A stretch of DNA of 64,000 nt from an uncultured Desulfobacter sp. (GTDB lineage: Bacteria > Desulfobacterota > Desulfobacteria > Desulfobacterales > Desulfobacteraceae), in the NCBI GenBank assembly GCA_963665095.1, contig OY762069.1:5728001-5792000 (forward strand), given 5' to 3'. Made by a program: the position numbers and the translations under genes. The stretch's first letter is position 1, and each line of letters opens with the position of its first letter. Below are positions 23,023 through 25,269 of the stretch, one piece after another. Below the pieces are notes generated by a model. It saw only the letters and a program-made list of their open reading frames with translations. It was not told the DNA's origin and did not search any database.

Positions 23023-25269
23023 ATGATAGATTTAGACGCGCTTTTGGACCAACAGCTCAACGGGTTGCTTTCAACCCCGGGCAGCGTCAAACCGGTGATT
23101 GTTTTCCCCGAGGCCAATGACCCCAGGATCATCGCTGCAGCCTCGGGCCTTGTGAACCAGGCCCGGGTGGTACTTATCGGAGATATCGTTGAAATCCGGG
23201 CCCTGTGTGATTATAAAAGCGCTGAACTGCTCTGCCCCCGGGATAAGTTTTTCAATAAGGTGCAGGTGGTCAATCCGGGAACCAGTGACCTGGCCCCTGA
23301 GCTGGCACTGGGCCTGATTGAGGCCTCCAAAGGTCGGAAATGGGAATTTACGCCTGAAGAAGCAGCCAGAAAAATATTAAATCCGGTGTTCTTCGGGGCC
23401 ATGCTGGTACGCAAAGGATATGCAGATGCCTGTCTTGGCGGTGTGGCCAACTCCACCAAGGATTTTCTGGCCCCCTGTCTGCGGCTGATAAAATCCAATG
23501 GCACTGCCTTTGAGATGGGCCTGTTCTGCCTGCCGGACCAGGATCCCCAGTTGTGGGAAAACCATGCGGTGATGTTTGCCGATGTGGCGTTGAACCTGAA
23601 ACCGTCGGCCGAGCAGCTGGCTGATATTGCAGTAGGCGCCTGTAAAACAATGCGGGATGTGTTTCCTGTTTCGGTCTTGTCCGAAATCAACGGGGCCATG
23701 ATCTCCTACTCCACCAAGGGGTCAGGGCAGGGGCCAACGGTTTCAACCATCCGAGAGGCTGAACCGCTGGCCGCTGAGAAGCTGACTGCCCTGAAACAGG
23801 CTGATCCGGTGTACGACAGTATCTCCATTACCAGTGAACTGCAGATCTCCGTGGCCCTGTCCAGGGAGGCTGCTGAAGTCAAGCTCAAGAACCGGATCGA
23901 GGAATTCCAGGCCGCAGGCAAGGCCAATGTACTGATTGTGCCGGGGCTTGACGAAGGCAATATGCTCTACCATCTGTTCAACACCCAGTATCCCGCGGCC
24001 CAGAGTTCTCTCATCATGGGCGGCATGGACGGGCAGGTGCTGGATTACTCCCGGGGCTCCAGCGTGGTTCAGGTGATCAGGGGCGCAAAGCTTTTGCTGC
24101 TGACCCGGATCAAGGCTTCCAAGCCGCTGGTCAGGACCTCCCCGTTATTTCCCAGTCCCAGAATCCTGACGCTGAATCCCGGTTCCGTATCCACCCATGT
24201 GGCGGTGTTTGACGGCGAAATCACCATACTCAACACCGTGATTGAACATGCGGCCTCCCAGTCCGGTGACGGGGCTGATCCCTGCATCCGGGCCCGCGAA
24301 CGCTTAAAAGATGTCAAGATAGTGCTGGAGAAAAACCAGATCAGCCCGGACGCCTTTGCCATGATCATGTCCAGGGGCGGCATGCTGGCTGATGCCAGTG
24401 CCGGGGTATATGAAATTACCCCTGAGGTGCTGGTTGCCCTCAAAGATAATGCCATTGAGGATCATCCTGCCAATTACGGCCCGTTCATGGCAAGGCAGAT
24501 GTCCTGCCAGGGAACCATCCCCGCCTACATGGTGGACTGCCCCTCCATTAATGAATTGTCCGACGAGTACCGGCTGACCGGCATCAAGGGCCTTGAGAAG
24601 ACTCCCATCTGGCATGCATTGTCCCAGCGCCAGGCAGTGCGCATGTATGCGGATATGGCCAATGAAAGGGAACAGGACCTTAATCTGATTGTGGCCCACT
24701 TAGGATCGGGCATCTCCATCGGGTCCCACAAAAAGGGGCGGTGCATTCATGTGGAAAATGCTATTTTTGACGGTCCCATGGGGCCGTCCAGGGTGGGCAG
24801 CCTGCCGGTGGAAGCCGTTATTGAGCTGTGCTATGCCGGTATTGATAAAAATGTCCTCAAAAAGATGCTCAGCGGTGCCGGCGGTCTTTCCAGCTATTTC
24901 GGCACCCATGACATGAGACAGATTCAGGAGATGCTTCAGGCTGATCCTGAAGTTGACAAGGTTGTTTCTGCCCTGGCTGCGGGCATTGCCGCCCAGATTC
25001 TTTCCCGGCTCTCTGATTTTTCACCTGAAATCTGCGACCAGATTCTTCTGACCGGCCGCCTGTGCCTCTCTTCTCTCCTGCTGGATAAAATTCTTGAAAA
25101 GCTGACAGTGGTCTGCGACAAGATCACTGTCTTTCCGGGATCCTTTGAGGCCGAGGCGCTTAGAGATGCGGCCATGCGCGTGTACAAAGGTATTGAACAT
25201 GTGCATAAACTTGCTCCCATGGATAAAGTCGTATGGGAAGCATATAAGCGCCAATGCGAAAACATTTAA
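23023..25269 (+). CDS. Fusion of phosphate acyltransferase (Pta-type) and butyrate/short-chain acyl kinase (Buk-type)
   Basis: N-half: VFPEANDPRI, FADVALN, SYSTKGSG, ANVLIVP, DYSRG. C-half: LNPGSVST, RGGML, HALSQ, VAHLGSGISIG, GGLSSYFGTHD, VFPG. Confidence 0.85.
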   Translation: MIDLDALLDQQLNGLLSTPGSVKPVIVFPEANDPRIIAAASGLVNQARVVLIGDIVEIRALCDYKSAELLCPRDKFFNKVQVVNPGTSDLAPELALGLIEASKGRKWEFTPEEAARKILNPVFFGAMLVRKGYADACLGGVANSTKDFLAPCLRLIKSNGTAFEMGLFCLPDQDPQLWENHAVMFADVALNLKPSAEQLADIAVGACKTMRDVFPVSVLSEINGAMISYSTKGSGQGPTVSTIREAEPLAAEKLTALKQADPVYDSISITSELQISVALSREAAEVKLKNRIEEFQAAGKANVLIVPGLDEGNMLYHLFNTQYPAAQSSLIMGGMDGQVLDYSRGSSVVQVIRGAKLLLLTRIKASKPLVRTSPLFPSPRILTLNPGSVSTHVAVFDGEITILNTVIEHAASQSGDGADPCIRARERLKDVKIVLEKNQISPDAFAMIMSRGGMLADASAGVYEITPEVLVALKDNAIEDHPANYGPFMARQMSCQGTIPAYMVDCPSINELSDEYRLTGIKGLEKTPIWHALSQRQAVRMYADMANEREQDLNLIVAHLGSGISIGSHKKGRCIHVENAIFDGPMGPSRVGSLPVEAVIELCYAGIDKNVLKKMLSGAGGLSSYFGTHDMRQIQEMLQADPEVDKVVSALAAGIAAQILSRLSDFSPEICDQILLTGRLCLSSLLLDKILEKLTVVCDKITVFPGSFEAEALRDAAMRVYKGIEHVHKLAPMDKVVWEAYKRQCENI

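What the first reader, a model, noticed from the sequence alone, without database searches (positions are those of the whole stretch)
23023..25269. Pta-Buk fusion in a BMC operon, with altered catalytic motifs, next to a separate AckA
Seen: one 748-aa ORF joins a Pta-type acyltransferase to a butyrate-kinase-type domain (junction ~24160). Canonical Pta DLSRGCSxxD reads DYSRGSSVVQ: Ser and Arg are kept, but the position of the catalytic Asp (D316 of Methanosarcina thermophila Pta, aligned by eye) is Gln. Kinase motifs also drift (NPGSVSTH, HALSQ, GPSRVG). Inference: either a channelling acyl-CoA-to-acid+ATP enzyme for an unusual acyl group (propionyl, 3-hydroxypropionyl, butyryl) replacing PduL, or a partly inactive scaffold. 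Two kinases suggest more than one substrate.
Basis: partly seen in the sequence, partly recalled or inferred. Interest (0 to 1): 0.75.

Follow-up and report, generated by a model that had tools for sequence, protein, structure and literature searches.

The report
Microcompartment transacylase with decaying kinase half
In a sulfate reducer's propanediol-microcompartment operon, one gene fuses a CoA-recycling enzyme to a kinase; the first half is tightly conserved and likely replaces the missing standard enzyme PduL, while the kinase half has lost two ATP-site residues and likely leaves ATP-making to the intact kinase gene next door.

Summary
The 748-aa Pta-Buk fusion is real: 51 other proteins align over at least 95% of it, and a contig from another sample spans the junction without indels. 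It lies in a B12-dependent Pdu microcompartment operon lacking PduL, with the same gene order in 4 genomes. The fusion family predates the microcompartment link: 0 of 31 metagenome loci of other clades carry shell genes. The microcompartment clade (19 sequences, bootstrap 100) keeps Asp307/Ser309/Arg310, the residues whose loss kills Pta, and fixes Asp316 to Gln (19 of 19). In two published Pta enzymes Asp316Ala leaves 11-14% activity. Its kinase half has lost Lys14 (19 of 19) and Gly331 (18 of 19) and evolves about 3.9 times faster than the Pta half. The adjacent AckA is intact. In two complete genomes this Pta half is the only phosphotransacylase found. A mirror clade has a dead Pta half, an intact kinase and a separate Ptb next door (15 of 18 loci). 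Best reading (0.6): an active Pta-type PduL substitute carrying a pseudokinase-like remnant. Channelling and a second substrate are not supported. No activity has been measured.

The parts
23023..24114 (+). Pta-type phosphotransacylase half (residues 1-364); D341-S343-R344 kept, D316 position is Gln350 (nt 24070-24072)
   Evidence: PF01515; alignment to 1qzt; model matches 1td9 with TM-score 0.88
24115..24159 (+). 15-residue linker between the halves
   Evidence: secondary structure of the model; family alignment
24160..25269 (+). Butyrate-kinase-type half (residues 380-748); Lys14 to His392, Gly331 to Arg679 (nt 25057-25059); R451, D505, H531, H559, R590, E709 kept
   Evidence: NF002834; alignment to 1x9j/1saz; residue table
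25288..26493 (+). Intact acetate/propionate kinase (PduW-like role inferred), Val93 position is Ala
   Evidence: TIGR00016 449.7 bits over cut-off 293.4; motifs
19635..21083 (+). PduP-type acylating aldehyde dehydrogenase, the source of acyl-CoA
   Evidence: NF011927 638.6 bits
21121..23011 (+). PduS (21121-22467) and PduT-type BMC-T (22460-23011), directly upstream of the fusion
   Evidence: 11-bp gap to the fusion
9678..14840 (+). B12-dependent diol dehydratase PduCDE and reactivase PduGH
   Evidence: PF02286, PF02288, PF02287, TIGR04491
8467..9659 (+). Shell genes PduA-like BMC-H and PduB
   Evidence: PF00936, NF011944
14905..19532 (+). BMC-H with long tail, CcmP-like BMC-Tdp, EutJ, a 282-aa ORF with no Pfam family, BMC-P, split PduO (adenosyltransferase and haem-binding parts)
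5298..7792 (-). Divergent PocR-sensor histidine kinase and NarL-type response regulator; the kinase is conserved in the related operons
   Evidence: PF10114; tblastn hits of the kinase in G041, G423, G1377
26640..26681 (+). 18-pair hairpin followed by a T run after ackA, probable operon end
   Evidence: consensus match only; the number of such sites, 6, equals the shuffled mean of 6.1

Best explanation
The fusion's Pta half likely works as the operon's phosphotransacylase in place of the absent PduL, its kinase half has lost two ATP-site residues and is likely a weak or dead remnant, and the intact AckA next door likely makes the ATP. Inferred route: PduCDE turns a 1,2-diol (most likely 1,2-propanediol) into an aldehyde; PduP makes the acyl-CoA; the Pta half transfers the acyl group to phosphate and frees CoA, using Ser343 and Arg344 without the usual general acid/base Asp; AckA, with a widened acyl pocket (Val93 to Ala), makes acid plus ATP. 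Shown: anatomy, residue states, rates, gene order and genome inventories. Inferred: every catalytic step. History (inferred): an ancestral two-step Pta-Buk fusion was recruited into a Pdu operon that had its own kinase, so selection on the fused kinase relaxed; a sister lineage went the opposite way.
For: (1) D307/S309/R310 kept in 19 of 19 clade-A sequences; Q244 18, K257 19, N279 19, Y282 18 of 19. (2) Published mutants, passages read: P. gingivalis Pta D309A, S311A, R312A lose all activity while D318A keeps 11%, R89A loses 58% and R135A 21% (PMC6461089). T. pallidum Pta S314A 0.30%, R315A 0.07%, D321A 14.3% (PMC10194888). C. acetobutylicum Ptb has Thr at the D316 position (PMC9706017). The residues lost here are the tolerated ones. 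(3) The two positions named as marking the inactive MaeB PTA domain (V746, Y576; PMC7902834) map by numbering offset (my inference) to D307 and S128, both canonical here (D341, T145). (4) Within clade A the Pta half averages 75.5% identity and the kinase half 44.2% (120 of 120 pairs, 16 sequences); clade B 59.7/57.4, clade C 67.0/72.2. On one topology the kinase/Pta branch-length ratio is 3.85 inside clade A; subtracting from the totals gives about 1.0 for the rest. dN/dS between G041 and G423: Pta half 0.065, kinase half 0.122, AckA 0.078. (5) Kinase: K14 0 of 19, G331 1 of 19; R91 7, H180 12, R241 8 of 19; 7 of 19 have lost 43-51 residues of the 575-662 segment. M. thermophila AckA G331Q falls from 883 to 7.5 U/mg (PMC4390882). 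(6) G041 and G423 (100% complete) have no PF06130 and this half is their only PF01515 match. (7) Same operon with ackA directly after the fusion in 4 of 4 genomes that hold the clade; the stitched model P0049 shows PduP-PduS-PduT-fusion too. (8) Mirror control: clade C lacks S309/R310 in 26 of 26, keeps the kinase set in 25 of 26, and has a separate Ptb in 15 of 18 loci.
Against: No activity has been measured. The Pta half stacks several changes (D316Q, R87S, R133A, D246S, K283H) whose joint effect is unknown; each published mutant was single, and Ala rather than Gln. It has no Ptb-type compensating Asp at the C312 position (Ser346). Strong conservation would also fit an acyl-CoA-binding, non-catalytic role. 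The kinase half is still under purifying selection (dN/dS 0.12-0.14), and the window's own sub-branch keeps all 8 core phosphoryl-transfer residues in 7 sequences, so it may retain activity here. G041 and G423 each hold a second AckA, and in G041 it has no Pta beside it, so an AckA does not prove a Pta partner. G000 has two canonical Pta genes, a Buk-Ptb fusion and an AckA-PduL fusion elsewhere, and G1377 has one strong further PF01515 match, which could cover the step. No dedicated encapsulation peptide: the N-terminal helix is shared with non-microcompartment relatives. Context is known for only 4 genomes plus one stitched model; the other clade-A proteins have none, and the 4 genomes are kin.
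Confidence: 0.6

Rival explanations
1. Both halves are non-catalytic or nearly so: the Pta half is an acyl-CoA-binding sensor or scaffold (as in the PTA domain of MaeB malic enzymes), and CoA is recycled by another route.
For: The general acid/base Asp is replaced in 19 of 19 and both 3'-phosphate-binding Arg are absent. PTA domains are known to become sensors (PMC7902834), and clade C of this same family did so by sequence. No clade-A protein lacking the kinase remnant was found in the search of shorter proteins (12 hits).
Against: D307/S309/R310 are invariant whereas the known sensor domains lose them. G041 and G423 would then have no recognisable phosphotransacylase at all while keeping an intact AckA in the operon. 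A sensor fused to a dying kinase has nothing to regulate.
Confidence: 0.17
2. The window's protein is a fully bifunctional, channelling acyl-CoA to acid plus ATP enzyme for a second acyl group, with AckA serving another.
For: The window's kinase half keeps N7, S10, R91, D148, H180, H208, R241, E384 (7 of 19 in the clade do), passes NF002834, folds like Buk2 (TM-score 0.88) and is under purifying selection. The model has pTM 0.87, which fits a defined arrangement of the halves.
Against: K14 and G331 are both changed; 0 of 19 keep both, against 25 of 31 and 25 of 26 in the other clades. Deeper branches with the same upstream gene order have wrecked kinases (P0049). The operon has one signature enzyme and one aldehyde dehydrogenase.
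Confidence: 0.11
3. In the window's sub-branch the kinase half has switched phosphoryl acceptor from ADP to inorganic phosphate (acyl phosphate + Pi to acid + PPi), as in Entamoeba acetate kinase.
For: All 7 sequences that keep the 8 core residues carry Arg at the Gly331 position, with His or Gln at Lys14. The PPi-using Entamoeba enzyme has Gln there, blocking the adenosine pocket (PMC5517563). A nucleotide-free step would suit a shell that cofactors cross poorly (inference).
Against: The position varies across the wider clade (R 8, S 5, V 2, K 2, P 1, G 1). The extra PHOSPHATE2 Gly and the ADENOSINE Asp that mark the PPi enzymes are absent (HLGSG, LTGR). Closing the pocket did not convert ATP enzymes to PPi use.
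Confidence: 0.08

Closest known systems
Phosphotransacetylase Pta (PF01515): M. thermophila 1qzt, P. gingivalis 6iow, T. pallidum 8fir
   Same: Fold (TM-score 0.82-0.88), D307/S309/R310, Q244, K257, N279, Y282
   Different: About 27% identity; D316 is Gln, R87 and R133 absent; fused to a kinase; scores 142 and 159 bits, under the TIGR00651 and NF007233 cut-offs of about 310
Butyrate kinase 2 of Thermotoga maritima (1saz, 1x9j)
   Same: Fold (TM-score 0.86-0.90), 33-34% identity, R91/D148/H180/H208/R241/E384 equivalents
   Different: K14 to His, G331 to Arg; C-terminal domain of a fusion; decays across the clade
PDU1D microcompartment loci (Sutter et al. 2021, PMC8217296)
   Same: The D. alkenivorans DSM 16219 locus (L011), gene for gene like the window, is listed as PDU1D in the supplement
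   Different: No PduL; a Pta-type fusion stands there. The PDU1D passage read does not mention it; two supplement files were too large to read
EutD of EUT1 microcompartments
   Same: A PTA_PTB enzyme in place of PduL, described as the one metabolosome type that does this (PMC4784909)
   Different: EutD is a stand-alone Pta in an ethanolamine locus (recalled); this one is a divergent fused clade in a diol locus
Ack-PduL fusions (Erbilgin et al. 2016) and the MaeB PTA sensor domain (Harding et al. 2021)
   Same: Precedents for transacylase-kinase fusions and for PTA domains losing catalysis
   Different: Different transacylase family or partner; here the PTA half keeps the catalytic triad core and the kinase is the degenerate part
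GenBank ACL06655.1, 'Putative phosphate acetyltransferase/butyrate kinase'
   Same: Member of the P0004 cluster, which aligns at 73% identity; architecture already named by annotators; an ESM Atlas cluster of 65 carries both families
   Different: Annotation only; no functional study found

Membership tests
Pta phosphotransacylase | PTA_PTB domain and fold | tested here: met
   PF01515 160 bits over cut-off 24; TM-score 0.88 to 1td9
Pta phosphotransacylase | Essential D307, S309, R310 | tested here: met
   D341, S343, R344; 19 of 19 in the clade
Pta phosphotransacylase | Catalytic D316 of canonical Pta | tested here: not met
   Gln350, 19 of 19; so not filed as canonical Pta
Pta phosphotransacylase | Curated equivalog cut-off TIGR00651 | tested here: not met
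   142.4 against 311.2 bits
Pta phosphotransacylase | Acyl transfer between CoA and phosphate | not testable with these tools
   needs an assay
Butyrate kinase (Buk) | ASKHA kinase fold and family model | tested here: inconclusive
   NF002834 passes (296/222), TIGR02707 fails (251.6/289.1); fold matches
Butyrate kinase (Buk) | PHOSPHATE1 Lys14 and ADENOSINE Gly331 | tested here: not met
   His392 and Arg679
Butyrate kinase (Buk) | R91, D148, H180, H208, R241, E384 | tested here: met
   kept in the window's protein; all 8 core residues kept in only 7 of 19 clade members
PDU-type microcompartment locus | PduCDE and PduGH, PduP, BMC-H/T/P shell genes | tested here: met
PDU-type microcompartment locus | PduL-type phosphotransacylase | tested here: not met
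   only PF06130 match in G000 lies outside the window; none in G041, G423, G1377
Encapsulated microcompartment enzyme | Encapsulation peptide | tested here: inconclusive
   N-terminal helix is shared with non-microcompartment clades; a C-terminal helix (735-747) is seen only in the window and P0002
MaeB-like PTA sensor domain | Loss of the D307, S128 and S309/R310 positions | tested here: not met
   all kept here; clade C has lost S128, S309, R310
PPi-dependent acetate kinase (Entamoeba type) | Blocked adenosine pocket plus extended PHOSPHATE2 Gly and ADENOSINE Asp | tested here: not met
   bulky residue at Gly331 present, the other two marks absent

The most novel reading that the evidence does not exclude
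The window's fusion is a nucleotide-free acyl-CoA to acid module for a microcompartment: a Pta half that works without its catalytic Asp hands acyl phosphate to a kinase half whose adenosine pocket is plugged by Arg679 and which makes pyrophosphate instead of ATP, with AckA as the ATP-yielding alternative outside the shell.
Probability: 0.08. Interest if true: 0.85.

Novelty: new variant of a known kind. Interest (0 to 1): 0.52.

Why it matters
In the paper read, PduL is the phosphotransacylase of all but one metabolosome type that has one, and why Pta is rarely used is posed as an open question (PMC4784909). This locus would be a second, independent recruitment of a Pta-type enzyme, the first I could find in a diol microcompartment. 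It also supplies a natural Pta lineage with Gln fixed at the proposed general-base position, a direct test of the accepted Pta mechanism. The family as a whole is a neat case of reciprocal pseudoenzyme formation: whichever half decays, an intact stand-alone copy of that activity sits next door. Automatic annotation calls these proteins 'butyrate kinase', which is probably the wrong half for this clade.

Tried and rejected
Assembly artefact: rejected. Fusion as a microcompartment-specific invention: rejected, since clades B and C lie outside such loci (15 of the 31 loci are 10 kb or longer, and only 2 are full-length clade B). HALSQ or GPSRVG as signs of kinase death: rejected, the catalytic His and Arg are kept. 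N-terminus as an encapsulation peptide: not supported. Viral contigs: no match. More clade-A contexts were sought: 0 of 24 congeners; 3 of 401 in a phylum sample; 3 fusions and one lone kinase match of 401 in the order; one lone kinase match of 401 in the order of G076; 0 of 187 in the family of G410; 2 of 161 in the own family. These are samples, not proof of absence. No RNA holder listed. No verdict on a kinase-half/AckA complex: the job was not run. Part (clade C and 'rest' ratios as printed) failed through rooting; I used only the clade A values and the whole-tree totals. Lawrence et al. 2006 was not held; its mechanism is cited second-hand. The profile search of 1.84 billion representatives added no Gln316 sequence outside clade A (0 of 13 new Pta-bearing hits checked among the best 150). 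My notebook called L002 a malic enzyme; one search shows L001 and L002 are both long canonical Pta.

Full report
Observation. The ORF at 23023-25269 (+) encodes 748 residues. PF01515 covers 23-353 and butyrate-kinase models cover 380-728; residue 380 begins at nt 24160. Alignment to M. thermophila Pta (1qzt) confirms D341/S343/R344 = D307/S309/R310 and Q350 = D316. Alignment to T. maritima Buk2 shows Lys14 to His392 and Gly331 to Arg679, with the R91, D148, H180, H208, R241 and E384 equivalents kept (M. thermophila AckA numbering; this mapping rests on the Buk2 alignment, the papers and partly on recall). An AlphaFold2 model from 47 sequences has pLDDT 91 and pTM 0.87 and matches Buk2 and Pta structures at TM-score 0.82-0.90 over the targets. 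The fusion is no artefact: 51 other proteins align over at least 95% of it among 96 hits, and a contig from another sample spans the junction with no gap and five synonymous differences in the ORF.

Surroundings. The gene is second to last in a tightly packed operon (gaps -53 to 102 bp): pduA, B, C, D, E, G, H, a tailed BMC-H, a CcmP-like BMC-Tdp, eutJ, an unassigned 282-aa ORF, BMC-P, split pduO, pduP, S, T, the fusion, ackA, with a divergent PocR-sensor two-component pair. There is no PduL and no alcohol dehydrogenase. The AckA keeps all nine motifs checked and has Ala at Val93 in 3 of 3 operon copies aligned, while the lone AckA of G041 has Val. Val93 limits acyl length (PMC5517563 and PMC3475010, passages), so propionyl phosphate is a fitting substrate (inference). 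The same operon, with ackA directly after the fusion, is in G041, G423 and G1377. L011, titled Desulfatibacillum alkenivorans DSM 16219, is probably the same genome as G041 and is counted once; it adds an Fe-ADH after ackA. The stitched model P0049 shows PduP-PduS-PduT-fusion with a much-decayed kinase. The operon is patchy (0 of 24 congeners; 2 of 161 in the family) and richer in G+C than the genome (54% against 49%), which fits horizontal spread.

The family falls into three groups. Rows left out of the counts: P0007 (C-terminus out of register), P0049 (stitched), P0059 (reverse domain order), short fragments and metagenome loci cut inside the gene; some clade-C proteins and loci may be duplicates, and alignment is poor in the most decayed kinases (P0045, P0058). 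Clade A, 19 sequences with the window, is monophyletic (ultrafast bootstrap 100 on the 15 of them included among 39 rows): D307/S309/R310 19 of 19, Gln at 316 19 of 19; kinase Lys14 0 of 19, Gly331 1 of 19, R91 7, H180 12, R241 8 of 19, seven with deletions of 43-51 residues. Group B, 31 sequences and paraphyletic: Asp or Glu at 316 in 31 of 31 and the full kinase set in 25 of 31, the likely ancestral two-step enzyme; a few members show separate kinase decay. Clade C, 26 sequences: S309/R310 lost in 26 of 26, kinase set intact in 25 of 26, and a stand-alone Ptb in 15 of 18 loci. None of 31 metagenome loci of groups B and C carries a shell or core Pdu gene (one has a cobalamin adenosyltransferase), though only 15 are 10 kb or longer and only 2 are full-length group B.

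Which half works. Selection is lopsided. Within clade A the Pta half averages 75.5% identity and the kinase half 44.2% (120 of 120 pairs), against 59.7/57.4 in B and 67.0/72.2 in C. Kinase branches are 3.85 times Pta branches in clade A and about equal elsewhere (10.9 against 10.7 by subtraction). dN/dS between G041 and G423 is 0.065 for the Pta half, 0.122 for the kinase half and 0.078 for AckA, so the kinase half is relaxed but not neutral. Published mutants favour a working Pta half: loss of the D307, S309 or R310 equivalents leaves 0-0.3% activity, loss of the D316 equivalent leaves 11% (P. gingivalis, PMC6461089) or 14.3% (T. pallidum, PMC10194888), and C. acetobutylicum Ptb has Thr there (PMC9706017). 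For the kinase, G331Q in M. thermophila AckA drops activity from 883 to 7.5 U/mg and Lys14 is listed among the hallmark residues (PMC4390882). In G041 and G423, both 100% complete, no PduL is found and this half is the only PF01515 match.

Against this reading. Nothing is assayed; the Pta half stacks several substitutions; conservation could reflect ligand binding only; G041 keeps a second AckA with no Pta beside it; G000 has two canonical Pta genes, a Buk-Ptb fusion and a cNMP-AckA-PduL fusion elsewhere and G1377 one more strong PF01515 match. The window's own kinase half keeps all 8 core residues, as do 6 close relatives, each with Arg at Gly331; residual ATP activity or a switch to Pi/PPi, as in Entamoeba acetate kinase (PMC5517563), is not excluded. 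Whether the protein is inside the shell is unknown.

Mechanism, most likely (0.6). Diol to aldehyde (PduCDE), to acyl-CoA (PduP), to acyl phosphate with CoA release (Pta half), to acid plus ATP (AckA). The kinase half is a folded remnant. Rivals: non-catalytic sensor or scaffold 0.17, full channelling enzyme 0.11, PPi-forming kinase 0.08.

What is known. The L011 locus is catalogued as PDU1D (Sutter et al. 2021: main text searched, passages of supplements 3-6 read, two files too large to read and possibly bearing on this). Erbilgin et al. 2016 (passages) give PduL for PDU and PTA_PTB only for EUT1. Axen et al. 2014 had no occurrence of my four terms. Annotators have named the architecture (ACL06655.1; Atlas cluster of 65). 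Six paper searches (listings only) found no study of this fusion; the library lacks most subscription journals. An earlier AI note on another genome (e1-714745) describes what I take to be clade C and agrees with my residue counts; it is not independent support.

Verdict. Observation confirmed; interpretation partly right but aimed at the wrong half. New variant of a known kind; interest 0.52.

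Noticed in passing
L016-L018, L020, L022-L029, L031-L035, L038; P0050-P0057: Clade C of the same fusion family: Pta half without S309/R310 (DLPMD or DLAMD), intact kinase, stand-alone Ptb in 15 of 18 loci; likely an acyl-CoA-sensing butyrate kinase.
   Followed up: partly
L006:979-3309 (G000:C1 about 1.118-1.120 Mb): 776-aa cNMP-binding domain + acetate kinase + PduL fusion in the same genome, outside the microcompartment operon.
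   Followed up: partly
L004:1444-3639 (-) (G000:C1 about 5.006 Mb): 731-aa kinase-then-Ptb fusion, the reverse domain order, with a divergent kinase half.
   Followed up: partly
L106:5164-5996 (-) (G000:C1 about 43-44 kb): Satellite pair of a PduU/EutS-like shell gene and a PduV/EutP GTPase, far from the main operon.
   Followed up: partly
window 31348-32925 (+): Acetyl-CoA synthetase-like ORF of 525 aa that stops right after WITGRV, without the C-terminal domain; no continuation seen in the two frames read.
   Followed up: partly
L030:8881-10056: Stand-alone 391-aa member of this divergent Pta subfamily (D-S-R kept, Glu at 316) directly after 2-oxoacid:ferredoxin oxidoreductase genes.
   Followed up: partly
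window 17207-18055 (+): 282-aa ORF with no Pfam family, a weak TIGR02536 match, conserved at 54-56% in the related operons at the position of pduM.
   Followed up: no
window 14905-15723 (+): BMC-H shell protein with a Pro/Ala/Lys-rich tail of about 180 residues.
   Followed up: no
P0034-P0036, P0038, P0046: Group B members with separate loss of kinase Lys14 and Gly331 while keeping Asp316, a second case of kinase decay; context unknown.
   Followed up: no
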